Assembly (NCBI RefSeq): GCF_036365525.1
Contig: NC_090378.1
Location: forward strand, 124,047,593-124,111,592
Direction: 5' to 3'
Source: Heterodontus francisci
Lineage: Eukaryota
DNA length: 64,000 nt
A program made the position numbers and the translations under genes. This document shows, one piece after another, positions 933 through 52,230 of this stretch. The notes beneath the pieces were generated by a model, which saw only the letters and a program-made list of their open reading frames with translations, was not told the origin of the DNA and made no database searches. Numbering within the stretch: position 1 is the first letter of the stretch; every line of letters begins with the position of its first letter.

Positions 933-1210
933 CAGCTGGAATTAAATCATCACAATCCCAGCATTCACACTTCACTCTTCACACTGGAGGTGTTGGTGTA
1001 GCCCCAGCTGGTGGGATCGCACTGTGCACTCTGTGCTGACTGCTGAGTAATACCTGAAATGAGCCTGGGACAATCTCAGGGCTGGAGGCCACACTCACAA
1101 TGTTCATTTCTCCCACCTTAACCAATGCCTCATGGTAACAGTACAAAACTGAACCAAGTGAGGTCTCAGTTTAGAGAGAGGAGCAGTCAGGGTATCATTG
1201 TGTACATGAC

Positions 1211-4200
1211 CCTGAGTGTGGGTGTGACTGTTACCCAGTACTGTCTGTAGGTGAGTGTCTCTGAGTGTGGGGGTGTTACCCAGTACTGTCTGTAGGTGTG
1301 TGTCTCTGAGTGTGGGTGTGTTACCCAGTACTGTCTGTAGGTGTGTGTCGCTGAGTGTGGGTGTGTTACCCAGTACTGTCTGTAGGTGTGTGTCTCTGAG
1401 TGTGGGTGTGTTACCCAGTACTGTCTGTAGGTGTGTGTCTCTGAGTGTGGGTGTGTTACCCAGTACTGTCTGTAGGTGAGTGTCTCTGAGTGTGGGTGTG
1501 TCACCCAGTACTGTCTGTAGGTGTGTGTCTCTGAGTGTGGGTGTGTCACCCAGTACTGTCTGTAGGTGTGTGTCTCTGAGTGTGGGTGTGTCACCCAGTG
1601 CTGTCTGTAGGTGTGTGTCTCTGAGTATGGGTGTGTCACCCAGTACTGTCTGTAGGTGTGTGTCTCTGAGTGTGGGTGTGTCACCCAGTACTGTCTGTAG
1701 GTGTGTGTCTCTGAGTGTGGGTGTGTTACCCAGTACTGTCTGTAGGTGAGTGTCTCTGAATGTGGGTGTATTACCCAGGACTGTCTGTAGGTGTGTGTCT
1801 CTGAGAGTGGGTGTGTCACCCAGTACTGTCTGTAGGTGTGTGTCTCTGAGTGTGGGTGTGTCACCCAGTACTGTCTGTAGGTGTGTGTCTCTGAGTGTGG
1901 GTGTGTCACCCAGTACTGTCTGTCAGTGTGTGTCTCTGAGTGTGGGTGTGTTACCCAGTACTGTCTGTAGGTGAGTGTCTCTGAATGTGGGTGTATTACC
2001 CAGGACTGTCTGTAGGTGTGTGTCTCTGAGAGTGGGTGTGTCACCCAGTACTGTCTGTAGGTGTGTGTCTCTGAGTGTGGGTGTGTCACCCAGTACTGTC
2101 TGTAGGTGCGTGTCTCTGAGTGTGGGTGTGTTACCCAGTACTGTCTGTAGGTGTGTGTCTCTGAGTGTGGGTGTGTTACCCAGTACTGTCTGTAGGTGCG
2201 TGTCTCTGAGTGTGGATGTGTTACCCAGTACTGTCTGTCAGTGAGTGTCTCTGAATGTGGGTGTGTTACCCAGTACTGTCTGTAGGTGCATGTCTCTGAG
2301 TGTGGATGTGTTACCCAGTACTGTCTGTCAGTGAGTGTCTCTGAATGTGGGTGTGTTACCCAGTACTGTCTGTAGGTGCGTGTCTCTGAGTGTGGATGTG
2401 TTACCCAGTACTGTCTGTCAGTGTGTGTCTCTGAGTGTGGGTGTGTTACCCAGGACTGTCTGCAGGTGTGTGTCTCTGAGAGTGGGTGCGTTCCCCAGTA
2501 CTGTCTGTAGGTGTGTGTCTCTGAGTGTGAGTGTATTACCCAGTACTGTCTGTAGGTGTGTGTCTCTGAGTGTGGGTGTGTTACCCAGTACTGTCTGTAG
2601 GTGCGTGTCTCTGAGTGTGGATGTGTTACCCAGTACTGTCTGTCAGTGAGTGTCTCTGAGTGTGGATGTGTTACCCAGTACTGTCTGTAGGTGTGTGTCT
2701 CTGAGTGTGGGTGTGTTACCCAGTACTGTCTGTCAGTGAGTGTCTCTGAATGTGGGTGTGTTACCCAGTACTGTCTGTCAGTGTGTGTCTCTGAGTGTGG
2801 GTGTGTTACCCAGTACTGTCTGTAGGTGAGTGTCTCTGAATGTGGGTGTATTACCCAGGACTGTCTGTAGGTGTGTGTCTCTGAGAGTGGGTGCGTTCCC
2901 CAGTACTGTCTGTAGGTGTGTGTCTCTGAGTGTGGGTGCATTACCCAGTACTGTCTGTAGGTGTGTGTCTCTGAGTGTGGGTGTATTACCCAGTACTGTC
3001 TGTAGGTGTGTGTCTCTGAGTGTGGGTCTGTTACCCAGTACTGTCTGTAGGTGTGTGTCTCTGAGTGTGGGTGTGTTACCCAGTACTGTCTGTAGGTGTG
3101 TGTCTCTGAGTGTGGGTGTGTTACCCAGTACTGTCTGCAGGTGTGTGTCTCTGAGTGTGGGTGTGTTACCCAGTACTGTCTGTAGGTGTGTGTCTCTGAG
3201 TGTGGGTGTGTTACCCAGTACTGTCTGTAGGTGTGTGTCTCTGAGAGTGGGTGCGTTCCCCAGTGCTGTCTGTAGGTGTGTGTCTCTGAGTGTGGGTGTG
3301 TTACCCAGTACTGTCTGTAGGTGTGTGTCTCTGAATGTGGGTGTATTACCCAGTACTGTCTGTAGGTGAGTGTCTCTGAGTGTGGGTGTGTTACCCAGGA
3401 CTGTCTGCAGGTGTGTGTCTCTGAGAGTGGGTGCGTTCCCCAGTACTGTCTGTAGGTGTGTGACTCTGAGTGTGGATGTGTTACCCAGTACTGTCTGTAG
3501 GTGAGTGTCTCTGAGAGTGGGTGCGTTCCCCAGTACTGTCTGTAGGTGCGTGTCTCTGAGTGTAGGTGTGTCACCCAGTACTGTCTGTCGGTGTGTGTCT
3601 CTGAGTGTGGTTGTATTACCCAGTACTGTCTGTAGGTGAGTGTCTCTGAATGTGGGTGCGTTACCCAGTACTGTCTGTAGGTGTGTGTCTCTGAGTGTGG
3701 GTGTATTACCCAGTACTGTCTGTAGGTGTGTGTCTCTGAGTGTGGGTGTGTTACCCAGTACTGTCTGTAGGTGTGTGTCTCTGAGAGTGGGTGCGTTCCC
3801 CAGTACTGTCTGTAGGTGTGTGTCTCTGAGTGTGGGTGTGTTACCCAGTACTGTCTGTCGGTGTGTGTCTCTGAGTGTGGGTGTATTACCCAGTACTGTC
3901 TGTAGGTGAGTGTCTCTGAATGTGGGTGCGTTACCCAGTACTGTCTGTAGGTGTGTGTCTCTGAGTGTGGGTGTGTTACCCAGTACTGTCTGTCGGTGTG
4001 TGTCTCTGAGTGTGGGTGTGTTACCCAGTACTGTCTGTAGGTGTGTGTCTCTGAGTGTGGGTGTGTTACCCAGTACTGTCTGTCGGTGTGTGTCTCTGAG
4101 TGTGGGTGTATTACCCAGTACTGTCTGTAGGTGAGTGTCTCTGAATGTGGGTGCGTTACCCAGTACTGTCTGTAGGTGTGTGTCTCTGAGTGTGGGTGTG

Positions 4201-4890
4201 TTACCCAGTACTGTCTGTAGGTGTGTGTCTCTGAGTGTGGGTGTGTTACCCAGTACTGTCTGTAGGTGTGTGTCTCTGAGTGTGGGTGCGTTCCCCAGTA
4301 CTGTCTGTAGGTGAGTGTCTCTGAATGTGGGTGCGTTACCCAGTACTGTCTGTAGGTGTGTGTCTCTGAGTGTGGGTGTATTACCCAGTACTGTCTGTAG
4401 GTGCGTGTCTCTGAGTGTGGGTGTGTTACCCAGTACTGTCTGTAGGTGTGTGTCTGAGTGTGGATGTGTTACCCAGTACTGTCTGTAGGTGTGTGTCTCT
4501 GAGAGTGGGTGCGTTCCCCAGTATTGTCTGTAGGTGTGTGTCTCTGAGTGTGGGTGTGTCACCCAGTACTGTCTGTAGGTGTGTGTCTCTGAGTGTGGAT
4601 GTGTCACCCAGTACTGTCTGGAGGTGTGTGTCTCTGAATGTGGGTGCGTTACCCAGTACTGTCTGTAGGTGTGTGTCTCTGAGAGTGGGTGCGTTCCCCA
4701 GTATTGTCTGTAGGTGTGTGTCTCTGAGTGTGGGTGTGTCACCCAGTACTGTCTGTAGGTTTGTGTCTCTGAGTGTGGGTGTGTCACCCAGTACTGTCTG
4801 GAGGTGTGTGTCTCTGAATGTGGGTGCGTTACCCAGTACTGTCTGTAGGTGAGTGTCTCTGAATGTGGATGTGTTACCCAGTACTGTCTG
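1211..4890. repeat. 45-bp minisatellite, about 81 copies
   Basis: Unit gtgtgggtgtgttacccagtactgtctgtaggtgtgtgtctctga repeated head to tail with point variants; a 2-bp deletion near 4453 shifts the phase. Confidence 0.99.
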
Positions 4891-4994
4891 GGTGTGTTGA
4901 AGACGGATAATGCTCCAGGGTTGAAGTCACAGATGAGTCCATGTGTCACTGGTTCCAGCCGTTATGGTGATGTGACAGGGCTGATAACCTGATT

Positions 4995-6270: not shown

Positions 6271-9200
6271 CCACCTAGCCCTGAGCAGGGGCCCTAACAA
6301 CCCCACTGCCTTGTTGGCGTCTTGGGGGAGTCCAAGGCTAAGGCAGTAAACCCTAACAGACAATCCGGAGCGGAACCCCGTAGGCGGTCATGTGTCACTT
6401 TAGGCATGTTTCCGGCAGTTCCTTCAGCCATACCGGTGCCAAATATCGTGCTCTGCACTCCTTTGGACCCCACCAGAAGGCCGAGAGGGGGGTGTTGACG
6501 CTTGGGCAACTCACAACCTCCATACATTCACCCAGGCAAGGGCCCTGGAGAGGTCACTCCAAAGTCGCCTCACAGCAACCGAAACAACACGGAAGGCAGC
6601 AGTTACAGGTTATAAGTCCAGCTCAATTGGCGTAGAGATTGGGCGCCACGGGCTGCCTTTGTCGGTGGGAGAGGTCATTGCGTCTCACTGGACATCTACC
6701 GCCCGCCTCAAACCGGGAAACCCCCAGTCAATAAGGTTCTGTCCCCCCACAGTCCACCTGCTTCAATGGGTGCTTGGAGCTCAGGGTTATTGCCCGAAAA
6801 GTGGACTGCAACACCACACCAAACAGCACGAAAAAAGGAAAGAAGGTACCAGCCCTTCGTTTTGCAAGCTGGAACGTCAGAACTATGTGTCCTGGCCTGT
6901 CGGAAGACCTTACACAAATCAACGATTCTCGGAAGACCGCCATCATTAACAACGAGCTCAGTAGACTCAATGTGGACATTGCAGCACTTCAGGAGACTCG
7001 CCTCCCAGCGAGCAGATCTCTAACAGAGCAAGACTACACCTTCTTCTGGCAGGGTAGGGTTCCTGAAGAACTAAGACAGCATGGAGTGGGCTTCGCCATC
7101 AGAAACTCTTTGCTCAGCATGATAGAGCCACCTTCAAATGGCTCAGAACGCATACTGTCCATCCGACTGCTCACCACCTCTGGTCCAGTACACCTACTCA
7201 GCATCTATGCTCCAACACTCTGCTCCCCACCTGAAGATAAAGACCAGTTCTACGAGGAACTCCATAATATCATTGGTAGCATCCCAAATACCGAACATCT
7301 GTTCCTGCTGGGGGCAATTTAATGCCAGGGTTGGGGCCGACCATGACTCATTGCCCTCCTGCCTTGGGCGCTATGGCATTGGAAGGATGAATGAGAATGG
7401 ACAGAGACCGCTTGAGTTGTGTACCTATCATAACCTCTGCATCACCAACTCATTCTTTCACACTAAACCCTGTCACCAGGTTTCTTGGAGGCACCCAAGA
7501 TCACGTCGTTGGCACCAGCTGGACCTCATCATCACAAGGCGAGCCTCCTTAAACTGTGTTCAAATCACACGCAGCTTCCACAGTGCGGACTGCGACACCG
7601 ACCACTCCCTGGTGTGCAGCAACGTTAGCCTCAAACCAAAGAAGCTGCATCACTCCAAGCAGAAGGGCCACCCGCGCATCAACACGAGCAGAATTTCTTT
7701 TCCACAGCTGTTACAAAAATTTCTAAATTGACTTGGAAAAGCTCTTCAAAACACTCCCGCAGGGGATGCAGAGACCAAGTGGGCCCACATCAGAGACGCC
7801 ATCTATGAGTCAGCCTATGACCACCTATGGCAAACGTGTGAAGCGGACTGCAGACTGGTTTCAATCTCACTTTGAAGATCTGGAAGCTGTCATAGCCACT
7901 AAGCGCATTGCACTGCTGAACTACAAAAAAGCCCCCAGCGAGTTAACATCCGGAGCACTTAAAACAGCCAGAAGCGCTGCACAAAGAACAGCCAGGCGCT
8001 GCGCAAATGACTACTGGCAACATCTATGCAGTCATATTCAGCTGGCCTCTGACACCGGAAACATCATTGGAATGTATGATGGCATTAAGAGAGCTTTTGG
8101 GCCAACCATCAAGAAGATCGCCCCCCTCAAATCTAAATCAGGGGACACAATCACTGACCAAAGCAAGCAAATGGACCGCTGGGTTGAGCACTACCTAGAA
8201 CTGTACTCCAGGGAAAATGTTGTCACTGACACCGCCCTCAATGCAGCCCAGTCTCTGCCAGTCATGGATGAGCTGGACATACAGCCAACAAAATCAGAAC
8301 TCAGTGATGCCACTGATTCTCTAGCCAGCGGAAAAGCCCCTGGAAAGGACAGCATTACCCCTGAAATAATCAAGAGTGCCAAGCCTGCTATACTTTCAGC
8401 ACTCTACGAACTGCTTTGCCTGTGCTGGGATGAGGGAGCAGTACCACAGGACATGCGCAATGCCAATATCAACACCCTCTATAAGAACAAAGGTGACCGT
8501 GGTGACTGCAACAACTACCGTGGAATCTCCCTGCTCAGCATAGTGGGAAAAGTCTTTGCTCGAGTCGCTTTAAACAGGCTCCAGAAGCTGGCTGAGCGCA
8601 TCTACCCTGAGGCACAGTGTGGCTTTCGAGCAGAGAGATCGACCGTTGACATGCTGTTCTCCCTTCGTCAGCTACAGGAGAAATACCGCAAACAACAGAT
8701 GCCCCTCGACATTGCTTTCATTGATCTCACCAAAGCCTTTGACCTCGGCAGCAGACGTGGTCTCTTCAGACTACTAACAAAGATCGGATGTCCACCAAAA
8801 CTACTAAGTATCATCACCTCATTCCATGACAATATGAAAGGCACAATTGAGCATAGCGGCACCTCATCAGACCCATTTCCTATCCTGTGTGGCATGAAAC
8901 AGGGCTGTGTTCTCGCACCTACACTGTTTGGGATTTTCTTCTCTCTGCTGCTCTCACACGCGTTCAAGTCTTCAGAAGAAGGAATTTTGCTGCACACAAG
9001 ATCAGGTGGCAGGTTGTTCAACCTTGCCCGTCTAAGAGCGAAGACCAAAGTATGGAAAGTCCACAACAGGGAACTCCTCTTTGCTGACGATGCTGCATTA
9101 AGATCTCACACTGAAGAGTGTCTGCAGAGTCTCCTCGACAGGTTTGCGGCTGCCTGCAATGAATTTGTCCTAACCATCAGCCTCAAGAAAATGAACATCA

Positions 9201-10072
9201 TGGGACTGGACGTCAGAAATGCTCCATCCATCAATATCGGTGACCACACTCTGGAAGTGGTTCAAGAGTTCACCTACCTAGGCTCAACTATCACCAGTAA
9301 GCTGTCTCTCGATGCAGAAATCAACAAGCGCATGGGAAAGGCTTCCACTGAGATGTCCAGACTGGCCAAGAGAGTGTGGGAAAATGGCGCACTGACACGG
9401 AACACAAAAATCCGAGTGTATCAAGCCTGTGTCCTCAGTACCTTGCTCGACGGCAGCGAGGCCTGGACAACGTATGTCAGCCAAGAGCGACGTCTCAATT
9501 CATTCCATCTTCGCTGCCTCCAGAGAATCCTTGCCATCAGGTGACAGGACCGCATCTCCAACACAGAAGTCCTCGAGGCAGCCAACATCCCCAGCTTATA
9601 CACACGACTGAATCAGCGGCGCTTGAGATGGCTTGGCCATGTGAGCCGCATGGAAGATGGCAGGATCCCCAAGGACTCATTGTGCAGCGAGCTCGCCACT
9701 GGTATCAGACCTACCAGCCGTCCATGTCTCCGCTTTAAAGACGTCTGCAAACGCGACATGAAGTCCTGTGACATTGATCACAAGTCATGGGAGTCAGTTG
9801 CCAGCGATCGCCAGAGCTGATGGGCAGCCATAAAGGCGGGGCTGAAGTGTGGCGAGTCAAAGAGACTTAGCAGTTGGCAGGAAAAAAGACAGAAGCGCAA
9901 GGGGAGAGCCAATTGTGTAACAGCCTCGACAACCAATTTTTTCTGCAGCACCTGTGGAAGAGTCTGTCACTCGAGAATTGGTCTTTATAGCTACTCCAGG
10001 CGCTGCTTTACAAACCACTGACCACCTCCAAGTGCTTACCCATTATCTCCCGAGACAAGGAGGCCAAAGAAG
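6270..10072 (+). mobile_element. Near full-length RTE-clade (BovB-like) LINE: AP endonuclease + RT + C-terminal zinc finger, lightly disabled
   Basis: FASWNVRTM, DIAALQETR, FNARVG, DTDHSL (APE); NYRGISLLS, FIDLTKAFD, KQGCVLAPTLF, LLFADDA (RT); CSTCGRVCHSRIGL near 9945. Breaks at ~7318, ~7731, 9542 and 9818; short gaaga tail. 5' boundary approximate. Confidence 0.95.
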
Positions 10073-23602: not shown

Positions 23603-24455
23603 TGTCATGCCACGAAGGGAAGTGGTGAATTATTAAATGAACTGGAAGAATTATGAAATAAAACTCAACTGTTGAACCGAGCTACAAAAAATGGACACCT
23701 TCGTGCCGCAGACAAAATGGAGTAAAGGTCAAGTGACCCCTCCTGTATTGTCAATAAACATGTATGTCTATTGAAGATTAAACCCATTATCCACATCTGA
23801 ATTAGCTTTGGGGAAAGCACATTGAAATAGAAAAAACAGCCCATTCCATGCTAACAACTCCTATCGACAGGCATGGAGCTAACAAAGACGTTTGCAGACA
23901 GATTGACTCCAAAGCCAAGGCCAAAATTATAGGTACGAACACCTATTTATCAAAATGGACCATATTTAGACACCATCATGTAACAATTGGTTCCCATGTC
24001 CTGGAACATTGTATAAATCACCCCAGGGGACAGAGCCCTTAGTCACCTGACCGACACCCCAACCTGGCGAGTTTCTCCCTTAAAAGGTATTTCTCTGGAG
24101 AGAGAGAGATAGAGAACAGCCAATGAGCAGCCAAAGAAGGTCTTTTCCAGGCAGACCAGCTATGAGACAGTGCCAACTAAGCAGAAGCCTCAGTGATAAC
24201 ATCTTTTAACGACTGCAGCAGAAAAATTGCAAGGGGAACCAGGATTTCCCACCACCAACTTCAGACTGAGGCTTAACCACAAGGAGCCTATGACACTTCA
24301 TCCTTTTCAAGACAATGAACATTCAGACCTGTACGGATGAAAGATTTCCTCACAAAAAAACTTCTAAAGCTTTTTTTTAAAGACTGAACTCTTTACAATT
24401 GGAATCAATATTGCACACGACCCTCTACTCTCCATCTTTTCTTGTGTGCGTGTGT
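23603..24455 (+). mobile_element. LTR-like sequence truncated by the downstream provirus
   Basis: Starts TGTCATG inside a CR1 relic; TATA-like tgtataaat near 24010; GA and GT microrepeats as in the LTR at 48055-48550. Confidence 0.45.
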
Positions 24456-24914
24456 TGTGGAGTATTCTTGAAAGCACTTCACACGAGACGGCTGTAGGTG
24501 AACTAAGGAAAATTTATTCAGAGATACAAGTATGCATACAGGGGAGTACATTTCTCAGTGAGATCCAAGAGGCAACTCAAAACTCCTTTGTTCAATTCAC
24601 ATACTTATACTTTAACTTCACGTGACATTCTCTGCGTCAACTATTTTCACATATTCACTTGGCCAGCTGCTTATTCCAACATACTTTGTTTCTACATATC
24701 AGCTATTTTTTAATCATCTAACCGTTCCAAGGCCATCAGTTTGTGGTTTGATCGTTCAATTTCCTTCTTCGTTCTTGTTCCTTCCCCAGTCATGTCTCAC
24801 TTTAATTATATCTTCACATGGCCCATTGCTTCACACTTCTGAAAAACAGGTTGAGGTAACACATTATGTACAATGTTGGCAGTTTTCAACATTCTTCTTG
24901 CTAATTATTCCATG
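24456..24914 (-). mobile_element. 3' LTR of an endogenous retrovirus-like element
   Basis: Imperfect terminal inverted repeat TGTGGAGTA / TATTCCATG; minus-strand TATA-like GTATAAGTA (~24602-24610) and AATAAA (24518-24513); purine-rich PPT gtggggtctaaagtagggaat at 24935-24915. Confidence 0.7.
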
Positions 24915-25120
24915 ATTCCCTACTTTAGACCCCACTTTTGACCCCTGGTCAGATACGATCTGGCCCAGGTGGCCCAGGTGGTCATTCCCTGAATCCTCCA
25001 CCTGTCGAACAATCTGAGGATCTGGGACTCGACAAACTTCAAATCCCTTCCTGAGGTCCTCTTATGGCCTTACTGAGGTCTTAGTGATCTAGGCTGAGCC
25101 TGGGACTGATTCTACCTACA

Positions 25121-26434
25121 TTACATCATTATTACCTCTCTGAGGTTGCCCCCCCGTAAGTAGGTGCGTGACCCTGTGGGCATTGGATTGTATCTTTTGG
25201 TGGCCAGCATTACCATTAGCTCTGCTTGAGACATCATCAGTTTCTGGGAACAGCAGATACACAGGCTGATTAGCAACACTACAATGGATGCACCTGCTGC
25301 CACATATCTCTCTCTGTCCCACTACTCGTACCGCATTCTTGCTATTGTTTCACTGCCTTGTGCTGAATCCTCCAGCTTCCTGGCTTTCTCTGTTGCCTGG
25401 TGTATTTGTACTCTCCCACTGGTTACTGCCTGGTAACTTTCCTTCACATATTTATTGGCCATAATCAGGGCCTTACCTATCGCCTTCCTTCCAGGCTATC
25501 TCTCCTGCGCATCATCTATGCTTTGCGTTTTGTCCCACCGTGGGCTAAACATGTATCCAGTGAGAGCCCTACCAGCTATGTGGAAGTCTCCAACAGTAAA
25601 TAAGTCAATTATATGCAGACAGAAAGTGTGATTGTTGCCACACTCTAAACTTCCGTTTTATCTGTCAGGAAAGACCATTGTGTGAGGGAGGTTTGGACTG
25701 CCTTGAAGGCCTTTTCCAGAGGATTCACTGACACTACAATGGCAGAACTATTACTGATGGGCTTTAAGCTGTTGCCTGAGCAGACAATGAAATGCTGTGA
25801 TTCTGTACAACATTGCCGTGTTGTCATCAGTCAGGTGGTATTCTTACTGGTCACCAAGTATTCCCGGGATCCCACCTGGTATACCCACCCAGTCTATTCT
25901 ATTCCTAATGATTTGAATTTACATCCCCCTTGATAATTCTCATTGGTATGTTACTGGGGCAGGGTCATCAGAAACTTTATTATTTTCTCTCCTCCACTCG
26001 CAGTGGGTCATCAACGTTTTTAACATCGTATCATTACCCGTACTGGTAATACAGGTCAAGTTAGACTTGTGTATGTGACACTGACAAGAGGAGTTAATGC
26101 AGCCTGCAGGCTCATACAGCCAAGAGCCTACGTCGTCTCTACACGAGGACCACGGGTTTGGCAGGCAGAATGTAAGACCTGGTCTGGACAGTGATACCTG
26201 TGTTATCACATTCCTCAAACTAATCGAGATGATGCGATGGCTGTCTCCGGTCATCCTGTCCAATATCCGGACATTGGGTCTCCTTACCCACTCTCCATGG
26301 CCTCCTTTGGGCAGCTGTATGTACTGGCCAGGATGCTAACAGGTGTTGTTTCTAATAACTATCAGAGGCTTTTCCCAGGCTGCCACAGTTCCCTAGAGGA
26401 TGGTTGCGATGATTCCATCTCTCCAATTCATCAT
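25121..26434 (-). pseudogene. env: Decayed env-like gene with paramyxovirus-F-like motifs (lokiretrovirus-like)
   Basis: Acceptor ctgtgatttctcccaacAG (26440-26439) just before ATGATG; signal-peptide-like MMNWRDGIIATIL*GTVAA; Cys motif EYLVTSKNTT*LMTTRQCCTESQHFIVCSGNSLKPIS; heptad-like segment; TM VAAGASIVVLLISLCICC; cytoplasmic tail; several stops and frameshifts. Confidence 0.7.
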
Positions 26435-26477
26435 TACACTGTTGGGAGAAATCACAGAGGACGCCGGTCATGACTGG

Positions 26478-26710
26478 TTAGTCCTTATTATCCTTTGCGC
26501 CTTTAAAAGGTTTAAGTTGGGACCAATATTTTCAACTACCCTTCCCTCTTATATCCACACGTGCGCAAGTGTCCTTGTCATTAGGACCTCATAGGGCCCT
26601 TGCCATCGGGGTGCTAATCCTGTCTTTTCATTTAAAATCTTGACCATGACCTGATCTCCTACCCCTGGTATGTCTGAATACTATTGATTGTTCTGACCTT
26701 CCCCACCTAC
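26478..26710 (-). pseudogene. pol: Retroviral integrase C-terminal tail (GPY/F module)
   Basis: IPGVGDQVMVKILNEKTGLAPRWQGPYEVLMT, then after a frameshift DTCARVDIRGKGS*KYWSQLKPFKG; stop at 26480-26478; truncated near 26710. Confidence 0.8.
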
Positions 26711-26714
26711 AGAT

Positions 26715-28900
26715 CACGTCACTCAATAATGCTCTCAACTATGAGCACATAAATACATATAATTCAAGCAATCAATCATTCATGGACTTAAGATTCTCCA
26801 GCTCTCCTTTTATCTGCATCCAACTTCTGGATAATTCTTATTAAATGCTAGACTTAGATCTTAATTGTCGCAATCCAGATTCTATATCCCTCTTTATATT
26901 AATTTCACTCCCTCTGACAGGTACAATTCTATCTGATTAATTTAAAGTCAGTTTCTCTATGGAATACGTGTCAATGCTTTGATGATTCAAAATGTTGTCT
27001 CACTCCACTGGCCACAATAACCATTTCATGTCATGCTGTTTGTCAAGTAGTTGCACATGTTTGAGAACCGTTCGTCAGTGCATTTCCACCATGCATTTTG
27101 CATGTTAATTACTTCACATGTAAAAAGTCACATCTGCACTCTTACACTGGTATCCCAATATCACGCCACACATTCTCAACTCTCAGGTGATCTTATCAAA
27201 AGATCAAAAAGGGGGGTGTCTGTCACAAAACCTTTGCTTATCTCCCCCGTATGGTTCTGATACCTCGGGCAGTGGCTGGACATTTAAATGTGGTTTTCTT
27301 TAAAAAAAAACTCAAAGGCAAGGATACAAATATTTCCAAGAGAAAAGTGTCAATTACAATTCTTATCTACACATCTTAACTTCCACTGGAAAGTACTGGA
27401 CTTCTCGGAAATTATACACGATACTAATTGAAGGGTTTGAATTTTAATTTTCTAATATTTGTTCCCCAAATTCCCTTATTAGCTCTTGCACCAGCCCGAT
27501 TTAACTTCCAATATTATAATTAATCCCATTAATTAGAATTCCATTTCATTTTTTTGAGCCCTGGAGGAACTTTACAGTCCAATACAATATTATAATATCT
27601 TTAAACCTGAGAACCAAACATTCCCATTTGATCCCAGGCATTACAAGATTTTGTTTGTTCTTATTCTTAGATGGCATTTTAGTTTCTCAAAAGTAACTTG
27701 CAAAATTACGTTGGACTCTTTGCATCTCAAAATTATCCCAAATTCAAATAACAGTGTTGTTGGAGTGACAAGGTTTATTCATGTTCTATTTATTTCTCCC
27801 CAAAAGAGCCTTATTCTCATGCACTTTGTCTTGGAAGATAACAAATGACAAAAATCTTAGAAAAGGTAAAGCCTTTCGTCCAAATCTGATGTCTGCAGAT
27901 AAGTTCTTAAATTCTCGTGCTGTGGCATCAATTCTCATGTCGCCTGTTTTAAAAAAAAACACACAAAGAACCCATTGTGGCTCTGCCCCAGAGCCAAATG
28001 GGTTAACTTATCCAAATACATCTGCCGATTTAGAAACTTAAAATTTAATAATGTCCAATATATAAATTTTACACTCAGCAATGCAAAAGTTGTGTGGTGA
28101 ATTAAATGAAAACGCAGATGGAGCAAAAATAATTCTCAGATTTGTCGCTTTATGTAACTTCTTTTTTCAAAATACTTTCCTGATTGAAAACAATCAAACT
28201 CCATTTTAAAATAGTTTTTTTTCCAATTCTTTTTGGTATCCTTAGGAAGTGAAAACAGCAAAAATCATTCGTAACATCATCAACTTATAGAGAGATACAG
28301 CATTGAAATAGGTCCTTCAGCCCACCAAGTCTGTGCCGACCAACAACCACCCACTTATACTATTCCAACATTAATTCCCATATTCCCTACCACCAACCTA
28401 CACTAGGGGCAATTTACAATGGCCAATTGACCTATCAACCTGCAAGTCTTTTGGCTGTGGGAAGAAACCAGAGCACCCAGTGGAAACTCACATGGTCACA
28501 GAGAGAACTTGCAAACTCCACACAGGCAGTACCCAGAACTGAACCAAGGTCACTGGAGCTGTGAGACTGCAGTGTTAACCACTGCGCCACTCAAACTCCA
28601 AATAAAAATGTCTCTGGCAAGGAAGTCAGCGTTTTGGATTAACTTCCAATTGTTTCCAAACTTTCTAACATCGTCTTGTAAGAGGTTTCTAACCCAATGA
28701 TTTTTTGATAACAACCAGGCTTATTCCAAATTCCAGTTCACAGCAATAAACATATAAAATTCAAACTGTCAATGTTACATGAGTGAGCCTTGTATCTGGA
28801 ATTAAAGAGTCTCTCAAACCTTGATAATTTCATTGTGGTAACAAATGAAATTCCAGTTTTCCCAACTTAACAGGTTCGTTAACTTTAATACTCCCAATTT
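26715..28900 (+). mobile_element. Possible 3' end of a second LTR element (PPT, then an AT-rich LTR-like region)
   Basis: aaaagatcaaaaagggggg followed by tgtctgtcacaa at ~27197-27228; hydrophobic decayed frame at ~26770-26900. Right boundary unclear. Confidence 0.35.
28288..28590 (-). mobile_element. HE1-type V-SINE
   Basis: Homologous to 21749-22069. Confidence 0.9.
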
Positions 28901-29164
28901 AATTCAAATTATGGTACAGTACATGGCTCTACTTGATTGTATCATACTGTATTTGATTTGATAATATTGAAACTGTGTCACTGTGCATGCCTGTGTAATA
29001 CTGGTACTATATTGCAGTACTGTATCTGACTGTAATACTCGTACTCAACTGTATTGCTGTACTTGACTAATATATTAATAACATGCTTTCTTACAGTAAA
29101 TGGCTGTGCGATATATGTACTTTTTTTTATTACTGTACCTGAATGTAATAGTGGTGCTTTACTG

Positions 29165-49989: not shown

Positions 49990-52230
49990 ACCAGAGAACC
50001 ATGACGACACAGAAACTGCAGGGCTGTATAAAACACAGCAAATTGTTACAAACTGTGCACATGTGTCTGCAAGAGCAAAGAGGGAAGAGGCAAAGCCAAG
50101 TGCGTTAAAAACATCCAGTGAAGATCACTGATTCAAAAGAAATCCAAAAGAAGTCAACCAGACAAAATCTGATTTCAATCAGTGGGCTGTGGAATGAGTA
50201 TAAAATGGACATCAAAGTAGATTTATTCACAGCTCTCCTTAAAGAGATCGCTGAGAAAAGTGAAAATTCTCAGCAGAATATATCAAATACAATCCATCAT
50301 GTAGAGGAGGGGATCATTTCAACTGAAGACCATGAGCGACAGAGAGCCATGCAGACCACCTTAGAGCTACTGAAAGTTTACTGGCAGAAACTCAATGTCA
50401 GTAACGGTGTGTCTGGAAATATTATGGGGACTCTAATTGGACGATTGATGCTGTGCTGTGCAGACAGTTCGCTACCTGTGTGACAGATGGCCCTGGTCTC
50501 TGTGTACACCATCCTGTCCATTCAGTTATAATATGAAGGTGCTGATCTGGATCAGTAACAGGAGCAGCTAGAGGATCTGAACACACTCAGAGAACAGTTA
50601 GACAACGATGACCTTTCAGTCCTCTTGCAAAAATGCCATCAGATCGCAAAGGTAATTTCCAAGAATTTTCCCCATAACCAGCTGTGCAACTTGCTCCTCA
50701 TGGTCTTTAAAGGACTGTCTGACCAACACCCCAGCTGTTCCTTTGCAGCCGCTGTGCTCGTAAAAATCATCATTAAAGGTGAGGCAGTGATCCACGGGAC
50801 CAAGTCTCAGAAATACTAGACATGCTGAGGGTTGAACTGGAGTCAGTTCCTTATGAGGATTCAAAATGTTCTGTTCTATGTAGTTTCACCATTTTGTCCT
50901 GGCACAATATACTAGCAGTTATATCCCATCTCCTCAGCTCCCTGGACCCATTGGAGAAATTTGTCAGAGACGTGTGGAGATCAATGGCCAAAGACACAAA
51001 TGTGCAGTCAGGACTATTAAGTAGCTGGTGTACACACTTGAGAAAAGAACCTGCCCCATCAATGGAAACAGAAAACCCTATTCAACCGCTGTATCACTGG
51101 CTGCCATCTGCAGGTTGTGTGAGATTATCACTAAGCCTGTGTTGGCAGAGGTGCTGAATACATTATTCCCACTGATATTCAGTACCCTAATTATTTTGTT
51201 AACCAGCTGCGTTAATATTTCTCTGTTCGATTGTTCAGATACTGAATCGCAGCAGAGAGATTTCACAGCCCTATTTCAAACATCACCAAGTTGGGATCAG
51301 TATAAGAAGTGTGTACAGACACTAAAGGTCCTTCCAGGCAAAGCAACAAATGGAGGCGTCATTGAAAACATGAATAGAAATGGAGGATGGTGCCAAAGGA
51401 TGAAGCTGAACCACTTCGACAAGGGGGTCGTTCTGTTGGCCAGAGCAATGGCAGAACATGCTGGCTACAGTCTGCCTCATATCGTGAACCAACTGGCTTC
51501 TCACATCATTAGGCTCCAAGACTATCAGGCAGTTAAAGTAATCACCTCCTCGGAGAACTGCTGAAAGCTCCACTGCTTTCAGAGCTGGAGCTCACAGACA
51601 CTGTGCTAAACGGTTTGATAAGGTATTTGCTGTATGTCTCTCTTGTTAGCCGGTTGTTGTGTGTCTGGGTCCGGAGAAATATTAACTTTGGAACTAAAAG
51701 ACAGTCTTGGAGCGTGATGGACACAATGATTAGCCTGTTGGGGAATGAGCAGAACTCGGAGTTGCTAACGCATGTGGTGCTGTCGTACCTGAGTATTATC
51801 CAGTCAATGGCAAACACCATCCAGCTCTTTGTGGATCCAAATCTTACCAGAATTCAGCCACTCTTTGGGGCAGAGTCTGAGAAAGTGCGGGTGGAAGTAT
51901 TCAACGTGTTGGGGAACTTGACCAAGTGTGGAATTGGAGGGTCCACATCTTCCATCTCCCAGCAGGTCCATTCCAACCTGGTGCACTTGTTGTTGCACTC
52001 AGATGGAAAGAGTGAGGAGATCACCTGATCTTGCAGTTTAACACTGTGGATGATCTTCCCACTTATTGGATGTGTGAAGGGTTCTTGTTTAATTGAAAGA
52101 TATCTAGAGAACCCCAACTGGAGTTACATGGACTTCCTCAGAAGCATTTCATGCCAGTTGGTTCAAGATTTCCCAACGGGTGAATTCCTACGCCATGGAT
52201 TGTGAATAATTTTTCAACTTTGACCAGGAG
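49990..52230 (+). pseudogene. MROH1: Intronless MROH1-like pseudogene, copy 2
   Basis: Same motifs as copy 1, plus retained LFPLIFSTLIILL...GVVLLARAMAEHAG segment; in-frame stops and frameshifts; AATAAA downstream at ~52750-52772. Confidence 0.85.

What the first reader, a model, noticed from the sequence alone, without database searches (positions are those of the whole stretch)
25930..26210. F-like env appears to lack the fusion peptide and HR1 core, with a short Cys-rich module in their place
Between the F2-like strand and the later F-like segment there are only ~90 residues (GLTFCLPNPWSSCRDD...GCINSSCQCHIHKSNLTC...HCEW). They contain no furin-type site and no hydrophobic fusion peptide, whereas F proteins have roughly 250 residues there. 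Either this copy has an internal deletion, or the family encodes a compact non-fusogenic membrane glycoprotein (attachment, interference or immune decoy). The second would be a new architecture.
Basis: inference. Interest (0 to 1): 0.7.

Follow-up and report, generated by a model that had tools for sequence, protein, structure and literature searches.

The report
Deleted retroviral env, not new architecture
This is an ordinary broken endogenous retrovirus envelope gene that lost about 890 bases, including its cleavage site and likely fusion peptide, while related copies in the same genome keep that part.

Summary
The short form is real DNA, but it is a one-off deletion in a dead provirus.

Window 26,005-26,009 (minus strand) is a junction. 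All 11 of 11 dispersed copies that align on both sides carry 341-1,473 extra bases there. Two cleanly aligned copies carry 865 and 894, and a 5-base microhomology marks both ends. The missing DNA holds the true F2 strand, the basic cleavage site, a fusion-peptide-like stretch and the predicted HR1 helix. It has 152 matches in the genome.

Only 8 places carry the junction. All lie on one contig and share 98-99% identical flanking host DNA where checked (3 of 7 paralogues), so this is one event copied by segmental duplication. All 8 have a stop at codon 33, before the Cys-rich module.

That module belongs to an N-terminal extension that precedes F2 in relatives; it replaces nothing. 'HCEW' is an off-frame reading across the junction.

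The parent family is an F-type Env: a model of a 744-aa teleost homologue matches paramyxo/pneumovirus F and foamy Env. Only the family itself keeps modest interest.

The parts
26380..26434 (-). env start codon and signal-peptide-like stretch; stop at codon 14 in this copy
   Evidence: signal peptide inferred from the sequence
26010..26434 (-). retained first ~140 codons of the N-terminal extension that precedes the F-like core; stops at codons 14 and 33
26030..26179 (-). the Cys-rich module of the finding; part of the N-terminal extension, also present in copies that keep the fusion core
26005..26009 (-). deletion junction with 5-base microhomology (GACCC); ~890 bases missing relative to L018, 865 relative to L010
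25250..25980 (-). C-terminal part of the F-like env (matches residues 476-713 of teleost P0010), in two frames, with 5 stops
25250..25306 (-). transmembrane-anchor-like hydrophobic stretch of env
   Evidence: aligns to the end of P0010
26545..26680 (-). remnant of the integrase C-terminus; the rest of pol is not detected in the window
   Evidence: homologous stretch in L051 weakly matches Pfam MLVIN_C, E 0.084
26871..28908 (-). upstream internal region of the element (likely gag remnant), interrupted by a repeat
   Evidence: matches to L038, L033, L039; gag identity inferred from position only
24452..24925 (-). 3' LTR; no second LTR copy found in the window
   Evidence: matches the 5' LTRs of L038, L033, L034, L039; single self-hit

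Best explanation
This is a dead endogenous retrovirus env gene in which about 890 bases were deleted at window 26,005-26,009, likely by microhomology-mediated joining, and the deleted copy then spread to eight places on one contig, likely by segmental duplication of the surrounding host DNA. Shown: the deletion and its 5-base microhomology; the loss of F2, the basic cleavage site and the fusion-peptide-like stretch; the stop at codon 33 in all eight copies; shared flanks. Inferred: the parent Env worked as an F-type (class Ib) fusion protein. It would be a signal peptide, a ~230-250-aa N-terminal extension (likely receptor-binding; the Cys-rich module is part of it), F2, furin-type cleavage, fusion peptide, HR1, the F-like body, HR2 and a membrane anchor. 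The window copy makes no such protein and likely has no function. Whether the deletion arose during reverse transcription or later in the chromosome cannot be told.
For:: outside contig C8 every listed match breaks at or before query base ~692-697 (window ~26,005-26,009) or covers only one side; 11 of 11 dispersed loci aligning on both sides carry extra DNA (341-1,473 net); 2 further loci (L047, L048) did not align on both sides and were dropped; 7 of 7 C8 paralogues have no gap. GACCC stands at both breakpoints in L018; all 11 hold part or all of the missing coding segment, 152 matches in all; 8 of 21 matches span the junction, all C8 116.9-124.1 Mb; flanks of 3 of the 7 paralogues checked, 97.5-99.3% identical over several kb each, one 10-kb stretch wholly outside the LTR; stop at codon 33 in 8 of 8, at codon 14 in 4 of 8; homologues in two shark species and many teleosts with the whole core. 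F-type fold of the teleost homologue.
Against: The genome searches score only the best candidates (40 of 241), so a distant copy with a similar deletion could be missed. Flanks were checked for only 3 of 7 paralogues. No RNA data were examined. F-likeness rests on a low-confidence model (pLDDT 49.7) of a teleost protein only 19-33% identical to the shark pieces. No Pfam fusion family was hit by sequence and no F structure by sequence. The strict R-x-x-R site is intact in only 4 of the 9 loci with the motif; the others carry substitutions.
Confidence: 0.95

Rival explanations
1. A conserved compact, non-fusogenic glycoprotein family (attachment, interference or decoy).
For: Eight copies carry the short form. 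Signal-peptide-like and anchor-like ends are both retained.
Against: The eight are 98-100% identical, and the three checked share host flanks. All have a stop at codon 33 and 9-10 stops in the start frame. The sequence after the junction is in another frame. No dispersed copy shares the junction.
Confidence: 0.01
2. The deletion defined a short-lived deleted sub-lineage that retrotransposed before dying, so the junction is older than this insertion.
For: Short-homology deletions during reverse transcription are common in retroviruses (own knowledge). Five siblings have their own, different deletions in the same region (L020, L021, L022, L028, L030), and close siblings lack RT, so defective forms did move.
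Against: No copy with this junction was found outside the C8 block (8 of 21 matches).
Confidence: 0.03
3. The gap is an assembly artefact.
For: The region is a duplicated block, which is hard to assemble.
Against: Eight separately assembled paralogues that differ by 7-18 substitutions across env all carry the same junction.
Confidence: 0.01

Closest known systems
Decayed ERV proviruses with internal env deletions
   Same: LTR, primer-binding site, gag/pol/env order in relatives; stops, frameshifts and large deletions. 10.1101/2021.11.05.467493 (passages) says most endogenous elements have large deletions, especially in env.
   Different: Nothing of kind; only the family is unnamed here.
Lokiretrovirus (lokiortervirus) Env, PMC7947760
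   Same: Signal peptide, RxKR-type site, fusion peptide, coiled coil, anchor, F-like; tether plus second RNase H in pol (tether by Pfam; second RNase H by Pfam in teleost P0069).
   Different: Lokiretrovirus Env hits PF00523 (E 2.2e-7 in the paper); this family gave no PF00523 hit. The paper lists no cartilaginous fish among hosts. RT placement against lokiretroviruses was not testable.
Foamy virus Env (PDB 8rm0; PMC11468914)
   Same: Best VIA-align match to the teleost homologue (Z 7.9, rmsd 5.1, 190 aligned, tied with paramyxovirus F); F-type class Ib core.
   Different: Foamy Env inserts its receptor-binding domain between the F2-like part and the cleavage site. Here only ~75 residues separate the F2 start from the cleavage site and the extra domain is N-terminal. 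A related gag has a weak zinc-knuckle hit (E 0.0011), which foamy-like fish ERVs lack (PMC5210030 passages).
Epsilonretrovirus Env (WEHV1, WDSV)
   Same: Ranks 2 and 6 in the viral fold search (E 8.7e-10, 3.3e-7).
   Different: Much longer (1,159-1,317 aa). The family's RT falls outside the well-supported class I clade of the small tree (100/99).
Paramyxo/pneumovirus F (RSV, hPIV3, NDV, Nipah)
   Same: All 44 listed Foldseek PDB rows are F proteins (best E 2.2e-5); model residues ~250-600 align from F residue ~33 onward.
   Different: ~250-aa N-terminal extension; encoded in an LTR element; 9-14% identity.

Membership tests
   8 of 21 junction matches span it, all in one block of C8; 11 of 11 dispersed two-sided copies are long
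   stop at codon 33 in 8 of 8; 9-10 stops in the start frame
F-type (class Ib) fusion protein: parent family | basic cleavage site followed by a fusion-peptide-like stretch | tested here: met
   motif in 9 of 10 loci scanned, strict R-x-x-R in 4 of these 9; R-x-K-R in teleost homologues; absent from the window copy
F-type (class Ib) fusion protein: parent family | F-like fold (domains I-III, HR1, HR2, anchor) | tested here: met
   teleost homologue model, pLDDT 49.7: Foldseek E 2.2e-5 to RSV F, all listed PDB rows are F; VIA Z 7.9-6.3; Atlas features 0.93 to F/Baculo_F/Gypsy clusters. Moderate strength, by homology to the shark copies
F-type (class Ib) fusion protein: parent family | Pfam PF00523 match | tested here: inconclusive
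   no hit for shark fragments or five homologues
F-type (class Ib) fusion protein: parent family | membrane fusion activity | not testable with these tools
   none
Endogenous retrovirus | LTRs, primer-binding site, gag-pol-env order | tested here: met
   two LTRs in 4 siblings, 82-89% alike; primer-binding site complementary to the 3' end of genomic tRNA-Ser(TGA) genes; protease, RT, tether, integrase in relatives L059/L060
Class I ERV (gamma/epsilon) | RT inside the class I clade | tested here: not met
   RT of the distant relative L059 lies outside the 100/99 clade holding the Gag_p30/MLVIN_C-bearing rows; 30 rows, 177 columns, no named reference viruses. Close siblings have no RT
Clade Huo (snakehead-retrovirus-like / class III) | RT groups with SnRV | not testable with these tools
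   no SnRV sequence was on hand; best RT hits are unnamed rows and coelacanth and turtle ERVs at 43-56%; unresolved in the tree
Lokiretrovirus | RT in the lokiretrovirus clade; integrase close to CGIN1 | not testable with these tools
   no reference sequences on hand; RT scores MLV 106, foamy 103, Ty3 63 bits
Foamy-like ERV | receptor-binding domain inserted between F2-like part and cleavage site | tested here: not met
   F-like fold starts at residue ~250 and cleavage follows residue ~324 of P0010

The most novel reading that the evidence does not exclude
The compact architecture is excluded. What remains: a shark-and-teleost ERV lineage outside class I, primed by tRNA-Ser in the shark copies, carries an F-type Env with its likely receptor-binding, possibly Ig-like, module fused to the N-terminus. 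That is the coronavirus-spike layout, not the foamy one. The same fold search suggests that epsilonretrovirus Env is F-type too. If undescribed, F-type fusogens would be far more widespread among retroviruses than foamy viruses and lokiretroviruses alone.
Probability: 0.3. Interest if true: 0.5.

Novelty: new member of a known kind. Interest (0 to 1): 0.14.

Why it matters
The flagged feature does not matter: it is ordinary proviral decay amplified by segmental duplication. The by-product has some value. The parent family is a large (152+ matches), apparently unnamed fish ERV group with an F-type Env and long open env frames in teleosts. It bears on how often retroviruses used paramyxovirus-like fusogens and where receptor-binding modules were attached to them.

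Tried and rejected
Sequence-level proof of F-likeness failed. Pfam gave no fusion family; PDB sequence searches gave only flagellin, opioid-receptor or other chance hits. A word-based homologue search with the deleted segment found nothing among longer proteins; the full HMMER scan found 7.

The Atlas could not read the shark fragment; the teleost homologue was used instead.

Homology between the shark and teleost N-terminal extensions is not significant (hhalign probability 0.7%), and MAFFT misplaced the shark pieces. The fold of the teleost extension therefore cannot be assigned to the window's Cys-rich module. That fold itself is only a weak lead: Ig-like hits at Z 5.6-6.1, below helical chance hits, and viral Ig-like/RL11 proteins at E 1.8e-5 with low probability.

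The RT tree could not place the family beyond 'outside class I'. Two look-ups of earlier findings returned nothing. RNA and read data were not examined. No insertion age is given: sibling LTR pairs are 82-89% alike, but no host rate was established.

Full report
What is in the window. The finding lies on the minus strand inside a decayed LTR element, among LINE fragments. Read in order, it has an upstream internal region (26,871-28,908), a scrap of integrase C-terminus (26,680-26,545), an env from 26,434 to about 25,250, and a 3' LTR at about 24,452-24,925. The quoted peptide is real (open frame 25,940-26,335). The host is probably a cartilaginous fish; this is an inference from the closest named homologues, which are shark proteins.

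A DNA search of the own genome with 25,000-26,700 gave 53 matches from 40 of 241 candidates scored. Eight matches on contig C8 are colinear and 99-100% identical. All other listed matches stop at or before query base ~692-697, resume there, or cover one side only; that position is window 26,005-26,009. I aligned 13 dispersed loci and 7 C8 paralogues. Eleven of 11 dispersed loci that aligned on both sides carry extra DNA (net 341-1,473 bases; 894 in L018, 865 in L010, 838 in L009, 813 in L029). L047 and L048 did not align on both sides and were dropped. Seven of 7 paralogues have no gap. In L018 the five bases GACCC stand at both ends of the extra DNA, and once at the window junction, the mark of a microhomology deletion.

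What the deletion removed. The extra DNA encodes a second Cys-rich stretch, a long strand-helix segment, a basic site, a moderately hydrophobic Gly/Phe-rich stretch and a long helical region. The site-plus-peptide motif was found in 9 of 10 loci that I picked from the top matches, and not in the window; 4 of the 9 keep a strict R-x-x-R. A 216-aa open piece of this segment has 152 matches in the genome, including all 11 two-sided loci; the window's place is not among the 150 listed. Against a 744-aa teleost homologue the window matches significantly only residues 476-713, whereas five siblings also cover stretches within about 150-445.

The short form is one event and cannot be translated. Of 21 matches to a 116-base junction probe, 8 span it, all on C8 between 116.9 and 124.1 Mb. 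For the 3 of 7 paralogues whose flanks I fetched, host DNA matches the window at 97.5-99.3% over kilobases, including a 10-kb stretch wholly beyond the LTR. They are segmental duplicates, not new insertions. All 8 have a stop at codon 33 of env, 4 of 8 also at codon 14, and 9-10 stops in the start frame.

The Cys-rich module replaces nothing. It has 78 matches among 146 candidates, and in the siblings read it lies upstream of the deleted core. In the structural alignment the F-like fold begins at residue ~250 of the teleost protein, against F residue ~33. The matching shark stretch is inside the deletion. So the 'F2-like strand' seen upstream is not F2; it and the module belong to an N-terminal extension of about 230-250 residues.

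The parent family. The HMMER scan found 7 homologues: two from sharks, two from named teleosts and three unnamed. A second search found 51 proteins, mostly teleost, several of 700-744 aa with the whole core. An AlphaFold2 model of P0010 is of low confidence (pLDDT 49.7). Even so, all 44 listed PDB matches are paramyxo/pneumovirus F (best E 2.2e-5). VIA-align ranks foamy Env, NDV F and hPIV3 F tied at Z 7.5-7.9 (the tool warns that Z under 8 is middling). The viral library ranks an unnamed protein, WEHV1 Env, a baculovirus F and WDSV Env among the top six. The Atlas gives F, Baculo_F and Gypsy clusters at 0.93. Sequence searches did not show F-likeness. Relatives with env 44-46% identical to the sibling piece (L049/L059, L050/L060) carry protease, RT, tether and integrase. 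Their RT scores about equally to MLV and foamy RT and falls outside the class I clade in a 30-row tree without named references. The primer-binding site matches genomic tRNA-Ser genes (3 of 4 loci called tRNA-Ser). A place among snakehead-retrovirus-like/class III ERVs is my best guess, not a tested result.

Literature. F-type Env in LTR elements is known from lokiretroviruses (PMC7947760, parts 1-2 of 4, passages and a search of its supplement, which was cut when stored; PMC9040795 passages), foamy viruses (PMC11468914 passages) and errantiviruses (PMC13524379 passages). The foamy paper notes that F can take a receptor-binding module at its N-terminus (coronavirus spike) or between subunits (foamy Env). 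PMC9967133 (passages) calls epsilonretrovirus Env distinct from gamma-type. PMC4422223 (part 1 of 2) reports snakehead-retrovirus-like and epsilon-like ERVs in elephant shark; PMC6001957 (passages) defines clade Huo. Passages were also read in PMC5210030, PMC12193657, PMC12583693, 10.1101/2021.11.23.469661 and 10.1101/2021.11.05.467493; none of these passages describes this family's Env as F-type. Nine searches found no such description either. Two relevant papers were not held (a cartilaginous-fish foamy virus paper and a 2024 spumaretrovirus structure paper), and bioRxiv supplements were not seen, so absence from print is not established.

Verdict. Interest 0.14. The residual lead is the family's Env layout (probability 0.3 that it is undescribed, interest 0.5 if so).

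Noticed in passing
L031-L040 (close siblings, 76-89% DNA identity to the window element): 0 of 10 stretches match the family's RT or tether. In 4 of them the 5' LTR lies within the stretch (L033, L034, L038, L039), so this subfamily may have spread without its own RT while keeping env.
   Followed up: partly
G000:C8 116.9-124.1 Mb: At least eight recent (98-99%) segmental duplicates of the block holding this window, in both orientations.
   Followed up: partly
window 51,025-52,028 (+): Two overlapping open frames that look like a helical-repeat host protein; only a weak Pfam hit (TOR1L1_N, E 0.048). Possibly the gene or retrocopy carried by the duplicated block.
   Followed up: partly
fold search: Walleye epsilonretrovirus Env models (WEHV1, WDSV) match the F-type teleost Env better than most F proteins, suggesting that epsilonretrovirus Env is F-type.
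   Followed up: partly
L020, L021, L022, L028, L030: Five siblings have their own deletions of different extent in the same part of env.
   Followed up: no
L062:5,001-8,021: A related env on C8 holds a ~3-kb expansion of a 24-base unit just before the cleavage-site region.
   Followed up: no
window ~1,090-4,960: 45-base tandem array, about 82 copies, giving long spurious open frames.
   Followed up: no
window 7,727-9,544 (+): 605-aa open LINE reverse-transcriptase frame (Pfam RVT_1, E 4.5e-28).
   Followed up: no
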